A stretch of 41,552 nucleotides of DNA. Origin: a virus. Shown piece after piece: positions 27,001 to 30,000 of this stretch (positions within the stretch are counted from its first letter, which is position 1; each line of letters opens with the position of its first letter). The position numbers were made by a program. The stretch lies in the UHGV virus genome UHGV-0266300; one strand, written 5' to 3'.

Positions 27001-30000
27001 CGGCTCCGTAGTCCTGGTATTCGATTTTCATTCCGGATGCTCCTGAGCCACGTTGAAATCGCCATGATCACGACAAGGCATCACAACAAATTCAGGATTG
27101 CCATACATTGAGTTGATGATGGAATCAAACTGAATTCTGACCGCTTGCCCGTCACCGGAGGGACGTAACTGGACGGGAATAAATTTACGCTCACGACCAA
27201 ACATCTTCTCTGGATAACTCAGGTAACCCGCCTGGATCACCGGGTGTGTACAGAGGTCAAATTTTTTCGGAATGATGCGTTCCAAATCCGGAAAACAACC
27301 GTCCACCAGTTTAATGCCGGTAATGGACAGTCGGCGCTGAAACTGGTCGCGATGAACAGCGATCGGCTCTTTACTAAAAATCAGCTCTGTCGTTTCGGCT
27401 TTGGCCGGGACGCCACCTTCGAACTGGACAATGATGTTTTTCTTCGTCCGGATGCCGTGAGTCATGCGCAGTGCTACGAAACCATTGGTTGCCTCAATAT
27501 GTTTTGGCGTGATGTGAAGACCGTTCAGGTAATAACGAACGTCGTTTTTAGCAGCGCACACCAGAGCGGCGCGAATAAGTTTTGACTGGATGATCATGCT
27601 TTATCCTCCCATCCGATTACCTGGAAAAGCCCCATCTTCGGGTGATACCAGCGTGTGCCGCGTGGTTCAGCCTCTGACATCATTTGGTGGAACACCACCA
27701 TAAATGTCTCAAGCTCGACGACAGCCCTGCGAGACAACAGACCGTCCGGAGTCATAAATTCGTGCGTGTCGGTAGGGATGTGGTAGGCGTTGACCAGATT
27801 CCGACACTTGGCGTCACTCATTCCGCTTTTGGCTACCACCTGGCGGTAACCGACATATCCGGTGCGCATTGTGCCGCGTTTGATGTTCTCCACAGCTTTG
27901 GTGACCGTTTCGATCTTCTCTTCAACATGACTCAGGCGCTTCTGCTGGCGAACGGCATCGGCGGCCATTGCAGCGATCATCTCCATTTCCGTCAGCGGCG
28001 CGTGAGTTCGGAAATAACTGTTAACCAGTTCGCGCTGAACCTGCCATGCAAGAGCATCGTTAAAAGGCTTCGTCAACATCAGGTAACCAGACTCGAAAAG
28101 AATGATCCCTTTGGCAGTTCGCGCGGCAAAGGCATCAGAAAGTGACTCCGTACGTATTACGTCCGCAGTCATTTCAAGAAAATCCACCCCTTCGATAAAG
28201 TGAGAACGGTTGCGGTTAAACGCAGCACGGGCGGTACCTTCCGGGCGCTGGTGGACGTCATCAATTATTGCAAATGTCACAACACGCTGACTGCGATATT
28301 CGATTACCGGAAACTGTTTGTTGTTGATGGTTACAGTATTCATTTTTATCTCCAGACAGCCCTGCGTGTAATACCGGGCATATGTATTACTTGACCTGAA
28401 TAAATGGTGTGTTGGCACCGCTGGTCATGTATTGCGGCAGTGTACCGTTCCACTTGTTGATGGCTTCCAGCTCCATAACGTTTGGGTTCTGGCGCAGAGC
28501 TTCACCGCGTAAACGAATAGCGTCGGCTTCGGCCTGGGCTTTTGTGCGAATCGCATCAGCCTGTCCGGCAGCTTCCGCGCGCAGCATGTTTGCCTCTGCT
28601 TCGCGTTGCTTGACTTCCTGCTCGCGTTGCAGGGTTTTCTGGTTGGCCGTGACTTTGGCATTAATGCTGTCGATAACAGTAGGCGGGTACTCCGGCTTAC
28701 CCACATATGAGAGGCTCATTACCTGAATACCGATGGGCGTCATTTCTTCCTGAATGTCTTTAAGAGCTGCATCCAGCAGCTCAGACTTGCCGCCGTCGAT
28801 AAATTTGTCGGTGGTCATTTTGCTGGCCAGTCGGTTGAGTGCGTCGGCTATCTTCTGGCGCAGGTCGGTGTCGGTAATGTCGTCCACGCCTTTGCGGTAG
28901 GTCTGAAAGACTGTGGTAACTTTGGATGGATCAACTTTGTAGGCCACGCCGATGTGATAGCCGATGGTTGTACCGTCACTCATCTGGAAACTGAATGGAT
29001 CATCGTAGGTCTTCATCTGCTTAAAGGTCGGGAAGATGTAAACCTCAGTGTTCCATCCCGTCCAGTAGCGCCCAACACCGACCACTTCACCGACGCCTTT
29101 ATCGTCGCCCAGTTTGTTTACTTTGATGCCCACATTACCAGGCTCAACGCGATCGCAACCGACAAGGCCAATGGTCGGCAGAACAAGGGCTAAAGCAAAA
29201 AGTAATTTTTTCATCTTTTATCCTTAGAAAAAGAAAGACCCTTATAAATGGCATAAATGCAGGGCGGGGTCAGACACGCCAGAGCAAAGCCAGAAATCAC
29301 TGCTACCGTATCCTTCATTGATATGAGGGCCGGAACGATTAATCCGTAAATACATGTGATAATTGCCAGTGATATAACTATTCTGAAATAAATGTTCATG
29401 GTCCTCCTGATGTATTCGGCTTGCCTTATTTAATTGCGTCATGGTTAATTTCGTTTACGTCAGAATGGTTTTGTTGCCATCAGTTCGTAATATCCGGCGC
29501 TCCATGTGTCATATTTTCTGAACCATTTTTCTGTATACTGTTTCCTGGCGATGAGTCTGCGCAGTCGTCTGATTGTTCGCTGGTGTGCGCGGGTATACTC
29601 TGTGGTTGATTCTCCACGTTTCCATATCTCATTCCTGTTGAAGATAAAACGCTTGTCAGGATAGCGTTGTCGGAATCCTGAACGTTCAAAAGCGCGGGTG
29701 GTCATAAAGAATGCCAGGTAACGAATTGCCGTTTTTCGGGTGAGGCATTTTTTTGTTCTTCCGTGGCGTGTTACAAAAAATAACGGGCCGACGGGTGTAT
29801 CATGTTTCTGTAATGCCTGGTCAATGGCGCTGGCGGTGCGGTTGTCGATCATTTCTTTATTTCTCCCGAATAACGTTCATGACTCATTACTTCCCAGTTC
29901 CGGCCGTCGTCTTTCGATAACAGCCGCCAGCGACGGTTAACCTTCAGACTGAGATATCCGGTGCGCTGTATCCGATGCGGAAATATCCGTCGGCATCGGT

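What the first reader, a model, noticed from the sequence alone, without database searches (positions are those of the whole stretch)
28387..29399. SPFH/band-7 lipoprotein with a small membrane partner in the early operon
A 275-aa lipoprotein with an SPFH-like core and a long coiled-coil tail is start/stop-coupled to a 62-aa two-TM protein. SPFH proteins usually work with a membrane partner to organise membrane microdomains. In a phage early operon this pair is a candidate membrane-acting accessory module, for example superinfection exclusion or host envelope modulation. The function is not evident from sequence.
Basis: partly seen in the sequence, partly recalled or inferred. Interest (0 to 1): 0.5.

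Follow-up and report, generated by a model that had tools for sequence, protein, structure and literature searches.

The report
Phage SPFH lipoprotein with conserved hairpin partner
Two overlapping early genes of this E. coli lambdoid phage encode a periplasm-facing, HflK/C-like membrane-scaffold lipoprotein and a tiny two-helix membrane protein that accompanies it in hundreds of phage and bacterial genomes (including phage N4 gp19/gp20), a widespread pair whose role in infection has never been tested.

Summary
On the minus strand, a 62-aa two-helix membrane protein (29399..29211) overlaps by ATGA a 275-aa lipoprotein (29214..28387). The lipoprotein has lipobox LVGC20, Asp at +2 and a Pfam Band_7 match of 8e-31. 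Its AlphaFold model matches the full-length cage-forming SPFH proteins HflK/C, prohibitin and erlin.

The pair lies in the leftward gene block between the cI-like repressor and xis/int. The small gene carries a signature, P-x-L-I-S-[AS]-x-[SD]-[TD]..V..G (Ser 65/65, Pro 64/65). It sits directly upstream of the SPFH gene in about 70 of 80 genome loci across many phyla, and in several lineages it is fused to it. It is not NfeD and has no Pfam family.

The same two-gene cassette occurs in phiP27/Stx phages, P2-like P88, P1-like phage-plasmids and the virulent phage N4. In Dyella it is a syntenic chromosomal locus. This argues for a generic two-subunit membrane scaffold used during lytic growth, not a prophage-expressed defence.

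What it does for the phage is unknown. No promoter of its own, no PADLOC hit and no functional literature were found. It is a moderately interesting new variant of a known kind.

The parts
29211..29399 (-). 62-aa two-TM hairpin protein, the conserved partner of the SPFH lipoprotein. Predicted topology is N-in/C-in.
   Evidence: ORF and hydropathy. PHROG 1130 at E 1.5e-23. No Pfam family. Homologues lie directly upstream of SPFH genes in 63/80 genome loci by HMM, plus about 7 more by eye.
29403..29408 (-). Shine-Dalgarno AGGAGG, 3 nt before the ATG of the small gene
   Evidence: Read from the sequence.
29307..29333 (-). Signature segment P23-A-L-I-S27-M-K-D-T31, at the predicted periplasmic end of TM1 and the inter-helix turn
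   Evidence: Among 65 distinct partner sequences, Pro is kept in 64/65, Ser in 65/65, and a Gly 10 residues after the Ser in 63/65. Coordinates were checked.
29211..29214 (-). ATGA overlap of the small gene's stop codon and the SPFH gene's start codon (translational coupling)
   Evidence: The same kind of overlap is seen in phiP27 (4 nt), P88 (4 nt) and N4 gp19/gp20 (8 nt).
28387..29214 (-). 275-aa SPFH/Band 7 lipoprotein
   Evidence: Pfam Band_7 at E 8e-31. PHROG 200 at E 2e-115. AF2 model with pLDDT 84. Foldseek full-length matches to HflC/HflK, prohibitin and erlin.
29155..29214 (-). Signal peptide (residues 1-19) plus the lipobox cysteine Cys20, which is followed by Asp21
   Evidence: Sequence. 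Cys20 is invariant in alignments A2 and A3. 95 of 120 close homologues read C-D-R-VEPG.
28591..29151 (-). SPFH domain as matched by Pfam (residues 22-208)
   Evidence: coordinates.
28489..28683 (-). 65-residue continuous helix (residues 178-242). It corresponds to the wall-forming coiled-coil helix of SPFH cages.
   Evidence: AF2 secondary structure. It aligns with the long helices of HflK/C, prohibitin and erlin in Foldseek.
28435..28455 (-). C-terminal motif K-W-N-G-T-L-P (residues 254-260), a family hallmark
   Evidence: W255 and G257 are invariant and P260 nearly invariant across alignments of 50 and 67 sequences.
31627..31655 (-). Candidate pL-type promoter (TTGCCA-17-TACCAT), between the repressor gene and the first gene of the leftward block. 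It is the likely source of transcription of the pair.
   Evidence: Consensus scan only, 9 of 12 matches. The position relative to the repressor (31692-32348) and the first leftward gene (31179-31595) comes. Not tested.

Best explanation
The two genes encode a two-subunit SPFH membrane scaffold that faces the periplasm and is made with the phage's early genes.

Shown or read from sequence:
- The 275-aa product has a lipoprotein signal peptide with Cys20 and Asp at +2.
- Its mature part has the protomer architecture of the cage-forming SPFH proteins: an SPFH domain, a 65-residue helix, a short helix and a conserved KWNGxLP tail.
- The 62-aa product is a helical hairpin. Its only strongly conserved feature is P-x-L-I-S-[AS]-x-[SD]-[TD], at the outer end of TM1.
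- The two genes are translationally coupled, almost always adjacent, and fused in some lineages.

Inferred:
- The lipoprotein is acylated and retained in the inner membrane. This follows from the Asp+2 rule, from its partner being an alpha-helical membrane protein, and from the topology of the fusions.
- It oligomerises into an HflK/C-like ring or cage on the outer face of the inner membrane.
- The hairpin is its stoichiometric integral-membrane subunit. It would supply the transmembrane helices that HflK/C and QmcA carry themselves, and it stands in the place that NfeD holds in other SPFH operons.
- The pair is transcribed from the pL-type promoter after induction, with no promoter of its own. 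It acts during lytic growth, as its orthologues must in virulent phages such as N4 (gp19/gp20).

Inferred with low confidence:
- It fences off or stabilises a patch of the infected cell's inner membrane.
- The most plausible outcomes are keeping the membrane energised and intact until programmed lysis, or blocking entry of a second phage's DNA.
For: - Domain and fold: Band_7 at E 8e-31. The AF2 model has pLDDT 84. Foldseek probability is 1.0 over about 260-300 aligned columns to HflC/HflK (7vhq, E 6e-14), prohibitin (8rrh, 9o9z), erlin (9vvj, TM 0.61), stomatin, flotillin and QmcA.
- Lipoprotein: lipobox with invariant Cys. C-D-R in 95/120 close homologues.
- Partner adjacency: an HMM of the small protein finds it within 100 nt upstream, on the same strand, in 63/80 genome loci. 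These span Enterobacterales, Dyella, Sutterella, Pseudomonas, Leptospira, Bacteroidales, Saprospirales, Eubacteriaceae and Iamiaceae. About 7 more were found by eye. Nearly every hit of that HMM among all ORFs of the 85 loci lies beside an SPFH gene.
- Partner signature: Ser 65/65, Pro 64/65.
- Fusions: hairpin, then a basic linker, then a signal-like helix with an internal lipobox, then SPFH. Examples are P0125, P0130, P0142, P0144, P0414 and P0423. The same is seen in single ORFs in L045, L051, L052 and L073. This topology places the SPFH part outside the cytoplasm.
- Discrete cassette: homology to phiP27 covers window 28374-29403, which is exactly the two genes.
- The pair is also in P88, P1-like elements and N4.
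- Purifying selection: dN/dS 0.037 and 0.30.
- Use in lytic growth: 784 of 50,697 phage records carry a homologue. These include N4-like, Vequintavirinae, Bruynoghevirus, phiCbK-like and Kayvirus phages.
- No promoter or terminator was predicted beside the pair.
- Generic cellular function: the same chromosomal flanks (ribonucleotide reductase, hemerythrin, BlaR1-like peptidase) occur in 18 or more Dyella loci, and the pair lies next to sdh genes in Leptospira.
Against: - No oligomer, complex, localisation or phenotype was tested here, and no functional study was found in nine literature searches.
- The promoter scan is a crude consensus match and cannot exclude expression in the lysogen. A possibly related prophage SPFH protein of Pasteurella is expressed in lysogens (PMC9872710), but its homology to this family was not verified.
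- Many family members have Ser or Thr at +2, so inner-membrane retention cannot be read from the +2 residue across the family.
- In more distant phage branches (Bruynoghevirus, phiCbK-like, Kayvirus, haloviruses) the neighbouring small membrane protein lacks the signature. The pairing is therefore a feature of a subfamily, not of all phage SPFH proteins.
- The physiological role is an argument from analogy.
Confidence: 0.55

Rival explanations
1. Prophage-expressed defence. The pair is made in the lysogen and protects it from other phages at the membrane, by superinfection exclusion or abortive infection.
For: - The product is membrane-located and lies in the accessory part of the early-left region.
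- PHROG 1130 is filed under 'moron, auxiliary metabolic gene and host takeover'.
- The cassette moves between unrelated temperate phages, as morons do.
Against: - No hit to any of 5027 PADLOC models, even at E<=1.
- No promoter or terminator of its own.
- In lambdoid and P2-like genomes it sits inside the early gene blocks next to the immunity genes, and in P1-like elements beside the replicative-helicase gene; repressor control of these blocks is inferred from the lambda, P2 and P1 paradigms.
- Orthologues are present in strictly virulent phages.
- It is a syntenic chromosomal locus in Dyella and sits beside sdh genes in Leptospira.
- Exclusion exerted early in lytic infection, like T4 Imm/Sp, is not excluded. 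That possibility is covered by the best explanation.
Confidence: 0.15
2. HflK/C mimic. The lipoprotein cage captures or modulates the host FtsH protease. This would alter the stability of CII/CIII-type regulators or other FtsH substrates, and so the lysis-lysogeny decision.
For: - HflK is the only PDB sequence hit (E 2e-4), and HflC/HflK are the top fold hits.
- The weak NCBIfam hits are to HflC and HflK.
- Both face the periplasm.
- The pair sits in the leftward early block, where lambda keeps cIII (textbook lambda biology, not tested here).
- Authors of another phage genome have speculated along these lines (PMC10269572).
Against: - Scores are far below the HflK/HflC equivalog cut-offs (26 against 134 bits, 23.6 against 159 bits), and identity is only 16-18%.
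- Prohibitin and erlin match equally well, so the resemblance is to the cage class, not specifically to HflK/C.
- The same cassette occurs in P2-like, P1-like and virulent N4-type phages; that these phages have no CII-type lysis-lysogeny switch is from my own knowledge, not tested here. More distant homologues occur in haloarchaeal viruses.
- The family has its own dedicated membrane partner.
Confidence: 0.1
3. Lysis-timing control. The hairpin is a holin- or antiholin-like protein and the SPFH cage restrains or times membrane permeabilisation.
For: - In Kayvirus phages the distant homologue MbpS lies between the endolysin lysK and tgl. It lies beside MbpV, a membrane protein said to resemble holins (PMC7150955).
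- N4 shows lysis inhibition, and what senses superinfection in that process is not known (bioRxiv 10.1101/2025.11.12.688109).
Against: - Here the pair is about 10 kb from the lysis genes, which lie at about 39.1-40.3 kb.
- A selection of more than 60 N4 rapid-lysis mutants reported changes in gp61, gp63, gp50 and the terminal repeat. It did not report gp19/gp20.
- The partner is conserved next to housekeeping genes in bacteria and is fused to the SPFH protein. That would be odd for a lethal holin.
Confidence: 0.1
4. Lysogenic-conversion virulence factor. The product would be a surface- or vesicle-released triacylated lipoprotein that alters envelope properties and stimulates host TLR2.
For: - A prophage-encoded 'HflK/C-like' protein of Pasteurella multocida, 25-35 kDa, is found in outer-membrane vesicles. 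It signals through TLR1/2 and affects virulence (PMC9872710).
- This phage also carries a pertussis-like toxin A-subunit gene.
Against: - Homology of the Pasteurella protein to this family was not verified.
- Asp at +2 and an inner-membrane partner argue against release from the cell surface.
- The presence of homologues in virulent phages and in environmental bacteria is not explained.
Confidence: 0.05

Closest known systems
HflK/HflC-FtsH complex of E. coli (PDB 7vhq, 7vhp, 7wi3, 9cz2)
   Same: - The SPFH domain faces the periplasm.
- The protomer plan is the same: SPFH domain, long wall helix, cap helix and C-terminal tail.
- It is the best fold match (E 6e-14) and the only PDB sequence match.
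   Different: - Identity is 16-18%, and scores are far below the HflK/HflC family cut-offs.
- This protein is anchored by a lipid on Cys20, not by an N-terminal transmembrane helix.
- There is one SPFH gene, not a K/C pair.
- It has its own 62-aa hairpin partner.
- No link to FtsH has been shown.
SPFH-NfeD operons: QmcA-YbbJ (PDB 8z5g), YqiK-YqiJ, FloA/FloT with NfeD, archaeal PH1511-PH1510
   Same: An SPFH gene is coupled in an operon to a small membrane-protein gene, with lineage-specific fusions and lateral transfer (PMC2636767). QmcA is a full-length fold match.
   Different: - The partner here has no NfeD OB-fold domain and no room for one.
- Its conserved element is a short turn on the outer face, not a cytoplasmic beta-barrel.
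- According to the published structures (my own knowledge), the QmcA SPFH domain faces the cytoplasm. This one is exported.
Prohibitin and erlin cages of eukaryotes (PDB 8rrh, 9o9z, 9vvj)
   Same: SPFH cages on the non-cytoplasmic face of a membrane. Their fold-match scores are as good as those of HflK/C.
   Different: They are eukaryotic, anchored by transmembrane helices and hetero-oligomeric. There is no small hairpin subunit.
Phage N4 gp19 (68-aa membrane protein) and gp20 (lipoprotein); PHROG 1130 and PHROG 200
   Same: These are direct orthologues. gp20 is 62% identical. gp19 carries the signature (LLPSMVSALDS). The two genes overlap by 8 nt.
   Different: N4 is a virulent phage and the genes sit in its pre-replicative region. 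Cys is followed by Tyr-Asp, not Asp. No function has been reported for them either.
Phage membrane-level exclusion proteins (T4 Imm and Sp, P22 SieA, T5 Llp, phi80 Cor)
   Same: Small phage-encoded inner-membrane or lipoprotein products that act at the envelope. The T4 examples are made early in infection (my own knowledge).
   Different: No sequence or family relationship was detected. None of them has an SPFH fold. Exclusion activity of this pair is untested.
Kayvirus MbpV/MbpS (Staphylococcus phage K group)
   Same: A distant homologue, about 25% identical, with the C-terminal KWNG motif. It too is preceded by a small membrane-protein gene.
   Different: It has a transmembrane anchor instead of a lipobox. 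The partner has a single TM helix and no signature. It lies in the lysis region (PMC7150955).

Membership tests
SPFH / Band 7 superfamily (Pfam PF01145) | Match to the Band_7 profile above the gathering score | tested here: met
   107.9 bits against a cut-off of 23.6, E 8e-31, residues 22-208.
SPFH / Band 7 superfamily (Pfam PF01145) | SPFH alpha/beta fold followed by a long helix, as in solved cage-forming members | tested here: met
   AF2 model with pLDDT 84. Foldseek probability 1.0 for full-length alignments to HflK/C, prohibitin, erlin, stomatin, flotillin and QmcA.
SPFH / Band 7 superfamily (Pfam PF01145) | Assembly into a large membrane-attached ring or cage | not testable with these tools
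   Only monomer prediction was available. This needs multimer prediction, native gels or cryo-EM.
HflK / HflC (NCBIfam TIGR01933 / TIGR01932, equivalogs) | Score above the equivalog cut-off | tested here: not met
   HflC 26 bits against 134.4; HflK 23.6 bits against 159.4.
HflK / HflC (NCBIfam TIGR01933 / TIGR01932, equivalogs) | N-terminal transmembrane anchor and a paired K/C gene duo | tested here: not met
   It has a lipobox in place of an uncleaved TM helix. It is a single SPFH gene with a 62-aa neighbour.
HflK / HflC (NCBIfam TIGR01933 / TIGR01932, equivalogs) | Physical and functional association with FtsH | not testable with these tools
   This needs pull-down or substrate-stability assays.
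SPFH-NfeD operon | Partner carries the NfeD C-terminal OB-fold domain (PF01957) | tested here: not met
   No Pfam hit for five partner sequences or for two fusions outside Band_7, even at E<=10. Only 10 residues follow TM2.
SPFH-NfeD operon | SPFH gene and a membrane-partner gene conserved as an operon | tested here: met
   The partner lies within 100 nt upstream, on the same strand, in 63/80 loci by HMM, with more found by eye. Fusions also occur.
Bacterial lipoprotein (inner-membrane retained) | Signal peptide ending in the lipobox L-[ASTVI]-[GAS]-C | tested here: met
   MKK, then a hydrophobic core, then L-V-G-C20. The Cys is invariant in A2 and A3.
Bacterial lipoprotein (inner-membrane retained) | Asp at +2 (Lol-avoidance signal in E. 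coli; established rule, my own knowledge) | tested here: met
   C20-D21-R22 here, and C-D-R in 95/120 close homologues. Actual acylation and localisation were not tested.
Moron (self-contained prophage-expressed cassette) | Own promoter and terminator flanking the genes | tested here: not met
   No promoter-like or terminator-like site on the minus strand beside 28387-29460. This is a crude consensus scan, so the result is only indicative.
Known anti-phage defence systems (PADLOC-DB 2.0) | Match to any defence-protein model | tested here: not met
   No hit at E<=1 for either protein or for the two flanking gene products.
PHROG 200 (lipoprotein) with PHROG 1130 (membrane protein) | Profile match to the two phage protein families | tested here: met
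   E 2.3e-115 and E 1.5e-23. Neither family has a described function.

The most novel reading that the evidence does not exclude
The pair builds a phage-made 'mini-HflKC' compartment on the outer face of the inner membrane. This compartment would capture a specific host machine, for example FtsH, a membrane-acting abortive-infection effector, or the channel used by incoming phage DNA, and take it out of action during infection. That would make it a structural host-takeover or anti-defence device shared by temperate and virulent phages. A side reading is that the fused forms are polyproteins cut at an internal lipobox by signal peptidase II, yielding both subunits in equal amounts.
Probability: 0.15. 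Interest if true: 0.75.

Novelty: new variant of a known kind. Interest (0 to 1): 0.5.

Why it matters
SPFH cages are a current structural topic (HflK/C, prohibitin, flotillin, stomatin and erlin were solved between 2022 and 2026), yet what determines their clients is poorly understood. Papers that mention phage SPFH genes say only that their role is unclear.

Homologues of this SPFH lipoprotein are in about 1.5% of sequenced phage genomes, and the cassette itself is in about 10% of complete E. coli genomes. The family includes the model phage N4 (gp19/gp20).

The analysis gives it a defined, previously unnamed partner with a recognisable signature, natural fusions and a clear predicted topology. 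That turns an anonymous 'lipoprotein' annotation into a two-gene system testable in E. coli. The tests are: does it form a cage, what does the cage enclose, and does it change burst size, lysis timing, membrane potential or exclusion?

The small partner is unannotated in several phage records seen here (phiP27, the Stx2 phage records, a P1-like record), so it is easy to overlook.

Tried and rejected
- **PADLOC:** a scan of both proteins and their neighbours gave nothing.
- **NfeD or any Pfam family for the partner:** nothing, even at E<=10. Only noise hits appeared, such as RseC_MucC, DUF2207_C and holin-X, all below cut-off.
- **Literature:** nine full-text searches found only genome notes calling the gene 'SPFH/lipoprotein, function unclear'.
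- **N4 lysis-inhibition preprint:** it does not report gp19/gp20 among its rapid-lysis mutants.
- **Pasteurella PM0222:** I could not confirm that this 'HflK/C-like virulence factor' belongs to this family, because I had no sequence.
- **Profile search with the small protein:** it returned only enterobacterial 'hypothetical proteins', because that tool needs shared 5-mers. The wider distribution had to come from scanning the neighbourhoods of SPFH genes.
- **The search for related loci with the 50-sequence alignment:** it failed for lack of a conserved stretch. A 10-sequence alignment worked.
- **Structure prediction of a natural fusion (P0414):** this was dropped. MAFFT placed the small-protein rows on the wrong segment, and the tool reports no inter-domain contacts anyway.
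- **Context mapping:** I first mapped the window's int/xis from the Combat2C1 prophage. The window is colinear with that prophage only over 25835-40282. The map was redone with PHROGs on the window's own ORFs.
- **P0134:** its apparent C-terminal fusion is probably read-through of TGA codons by the gene caller. It is counted only as evidence of adjacency.
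Full report
**What is there**

On the minus strand a 62-aa ORF (29399..29211) and a 275-aa ORF (29214..28387) overlap by ATGA. AGGAGG lies 3 nt before the first ATG.

The large protein begins with a lipoprotein signal peptide, MKKLLFALALVLPTIGLVG-C20-DR. It matches Pfam Band_7 over residues 22-208 (E 8e-31; 107.9 bits against a cut-off of 23.6). It also matches PHROG 200 'lipoprotein' (E 2e-115).

The small protein has two hydrophobic helices joined by S-M-K-D-T and a basic C-terminus. By the positive-inside rule this gives an N-in/C-in hairpin. It matches PHROG 1130 'membrane protein' and no Pfam family.

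Both genes are under purifying selection. Against phiP27, dN/dS is 0.037 for the SPFH gene and 0.30 for the small gene.

**Context**

The window is a lambdoid E. coli phage or prophage. The pair lies in an unbroken minus-strand gene block that runs from a cI-like repressor (31692-32348) to excisionase (23798-24016) and integrase (22747-23820). The block starts with a CII/HTH-like gene (31179-31595). Anti-repressor-like and Ea22-like genes surround the pair.

Window 25835-40282 is 99-99.8% identical to a prophage of E. coli Combat2C1. RefSeq annotates both genes there, as 'SPFH domain-containing protein' and 'hypothetical protein'.

A consensus scan finds no promoter or terminator next to the pair. 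The nearest plausible promoter is a pL-type site at 31655-31627. Calling this an early operon is therefore reasonable, but it rests on position only.

**A mobile two-gene cassette**

Nucleotide homology to phiP27 and to a set of Stx2 phages covers window 28374-29403. That is exactly the two genes and nothing else.

P2-like phage P88 has the pair in its early gene block: a 67-aa partner gp11 with an ATGA overlap, then lipoprotein gp12. P1-like phage-plasmids have it next to the replicative helicase gene, with an unannotated 78-aa partner.

The cassette is in 535 of 5426 complete E. coli genomes, at 418 chromosomal and 198 plasmid places. The small gene is unannotated in phiP27, the Stx2 phage records and the P1-like record.

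**Virulent phages have it too**

A tblastn search finds homologues of the lipoprotein in 784 of 50,697 phage records. They include phage N4. There gp20 is 62% identical and is preceded by gp19, a 68-aa membrane protein with the same motif, with an 8-nt overlap.

Other carriers are N4-like phages of Erwinia and Klebsiella, Vequintavirinae such as 4MG (where the partner lies one gene further upstream), Bruynogheviruses, phiCbK-like phages, Kayviruses, Enterococcus phages and haloarchaeal tailed viruses.

In the most distant branches the neighbouring small membrane protein no longer shows the motif.

**The partner is a conserved family**

A search of 1.84 billion representative proteins gave 230 clusters at E<1e-30. 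Most are lipoproteins of about 280 aa.

About 20 of the best 150 are 320-390 aa long. They carry an N-terminal extension made of a two-helix segment with the partner's motif, a basic linker, and a signal-like helix ending in a lipobox just before the SPFH domain. That order of segments puts the SPFH part outside the cytoplasm. It is also classic gene-fusion evidence for a functional link.

I built a profile of the partner (A1) and scanned all ORFs of 80 genome loci recovered with an SPFH alignment.
- 63 loci have the partner within 100 nt upstream on the same strand.
- About 7 more are visible by eye, several of them fused.
- Nearly every hit of the partner profile lies next to an SPFH gene.

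The hosts span Enterobacterales, Rhodanobacteraceae, Sutterella, Pseudomonas, Leptospira, Bacteroidales, Saprospirales, Eubacteriaceae and Iamiaceae.

Among 65 distinct partners the signature is [ILV]-x-P-x-L-[IV]-S-[AS]-x-[SD]-[TD]-x-x-V-x-x-G. Ser is kept in 65/65, Pro in 64/65 and Gly in 63/65. It sits at the outer end of TM1 and the turn.

Exceptions are informative. In a Shigella flexneri locus (L006) and an E. coli locus (L007) the partner HMM finds nothing; in L006, the one inspected, IS1-like sequence lies directly upstream of the SPFH gene.

**It is not only a phage gene**

In Dyella, 18 or more loci from different species share the same flanks around the pair: ribonucleotide reductase, a hemerythrin-domain protein, a BlaR1-type peptidase and a MacB-type permease. 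A second group of Dyella loci shares a different set of flanks. In Leptospira the pair lies next to succinate dehydrogenase genes.

In these bacteria the pair therefore sits among ordinary cellular genes; in Dyella this is a conserved, syntenic chromosomal locus. This argues for a generic membrane function that phages have borrowed. It argues against a dedicated weapon against other phages.

**Structure**

With a 67-sequence alignment, AlphaFold2 gives a model with mean pLDDT 84. It has a signal helix (2-19), an alpha/beta SPFH domain (20-175), one 65-residue helix (178-242), a short helix (244-254) and a flexible tail. The tail carries the family hallmark K-W-N-G-x-L-P; W255 and G257 are invariant.

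Foldseek against the PDB returns full-length matches at probability 1.0 to every solved cage-forming SPFH protein. HflC/HflK (7vhq, E 6e-14), prohibitin and erlin come first, followed by stomatin, flotillin, QmcA and the vault shoulder. The first three all face away from the cytoplasm, as this exported protein must.

By sequence the protein is far from HflK/C. Its scores of 26 and 23.6 bits compare with cut-offs of 134 and 159 bits, and identity is 16-18%. It works like that class, but it is not a member of the HflK/HflC families.

**How it most likely works**

The shown facts are the domain, the fold class, the lipobox, the hairpin, the coupling, the conserved adjacency, the fusions, and the spread across phage lifestyles and cellular genomes.

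From these I infer the following.
- The lipoprotein is acylated and held in the inner membrane. The grounds are Asp at +2 (the E. coli Lol-avoidance rule, from my own knowledge), an alpha-helical membrane partner, and the topology of the fusions.
- It forms a ring or cage on the periplasmic face.
- The hairpin is its stoichiometric membrane-embedded subunit. It replaces both the transmembrane helix that HflK/C and QmcA have and the NfeD partner of other SPFH operons.

Because there is no promoter of its own and virulent phages keep the pair, it most likely acts during lytic growth.

Its benefit to the phage is the weakest step. Candidates are keeping the membrane intact and energised until lysis, excluding a second phage's DNA early in infection, or sequestering a host membrane machine.

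**Rivals**

There is no PADLOC hit and no own promoter. The pair sits in the early blocks, occurs in virulent phages, and is chromosomal in Dyella and Leptospira.
- An FtsH/HflKC mimic that tunes lysogeny fits the fold match and the lambda-like position. It does not fit the same cassette being in P2-like, P1-like and N4-type phages, which to my knowledge lack a CII-type switch.
- A role in lysis timing is suggested only by the Kayvirus context (PMC7150955). It is not supported by the N4 rapid-lysis mutants as reported.
- A virulence-lipoprotein role rests on a Pasteurella protein whose relationship to this family I could not verify.

**Novelty and verdict**

SPFH proteins with operon partners are well known (PMC2636767). 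Phage SPFH 'lipoproteins' are noted in many genome papers, always with the remark that their function is unclear (PMC13239085, PMC7760394, PMC10269572).

In nine full-text searches I did not find three things described: the dedicated non-NfeD hairpin partner with its signature, the natural fusions with an internal lipobox, and the equivalence of this prophage cassette with N4 gp19/gp20.

I rate it a new variant of a known kind, with moderate interest. It is a widespread, experimentally tractable pair of unknown role, not something categorically new.

Noticed in passing
P0414, P0423; P0125, P0130, P0142, P0144 and others; loci L045, L051, L052, L073 around 4800-5000: These are natural single-ORF fusions: hairpin, basic linker, signal-like helix with an internal lipobox, then SPFH. 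If signal peptidase II cuts at the internal lipobox, they would be polyproteins that release both subunits in equal amounts.
   Followed up: partly
P0134 (alignment A3): This is an apparent C-terminal fusion of the partner to the SPFH protein. The joining segment contains two Trp residues where relatives end. It is probably TGA read-through by the gene caller, with the partner gene lying downstream in that lineage.
   Followed up: no
L006 4650-5000 (Shigella flexneri); L007 (E. coli ECMA0423): The SPFH gene is 97% identical but the partner HMM finds nothing upstream in either locus. In L006, the one inspected, IS1-like sequence lies directly upstream, so this looks like a decayed copy.
   Followed up: partly
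window 37704-38492 and 38625-38923: A pertussis-like/scabin-related ADP-ribosyltransferase A-subunit gene lies between the Q antiterminator and the lysis genes. Its AB5 B-subunit gene is broken in this window. Residues 34-74 are missing and the frame shifts, because of a deletion of about 120 nt relative to the intact gene in E. coli Combat2C1.
   Followed up: partly
window 27028-27597 (-): This 189-aa early protein has a weak match to the DNA polymerase III beta-clamp central domain (Pfam E 0.005) and to PHROG 947 'processivity factor'. Its best PHROG (3007) is labelled 'RusA-like resolvase', so the label looks doubtful.
   Followed up: no
window 27594-28343 and 24964-25743 (-), also 24101-24724 (-): There are two ORF6N/PHROG 1726 anti-repressor-like genes and a third Ant-like gene in the same leftward block. 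One of them lies directly downstream of the SPFH gene.
   Followed up: no
L002 3304-3492 (phiP27); Stx2 phage records H103-H113; L004 4775-5011 (P1-like): The small partner gene is present but unannotated in these public phage records.
   Followed up: yes
L047, L043, L053, L057, L058, L071 (Dyella): A second group of Dyella loci carries the pair in a different shared context from the main syntenic group. At least one Dyella strain (D. japonica DSM 16301: L037, L063) has two loci, and two species (D. marensis, D. ginsengisoli) are represented by loci from different strains. I did not check whether the second context is a prophage.
   Followed up: no
This is suggestive context only.
   Followed up: no
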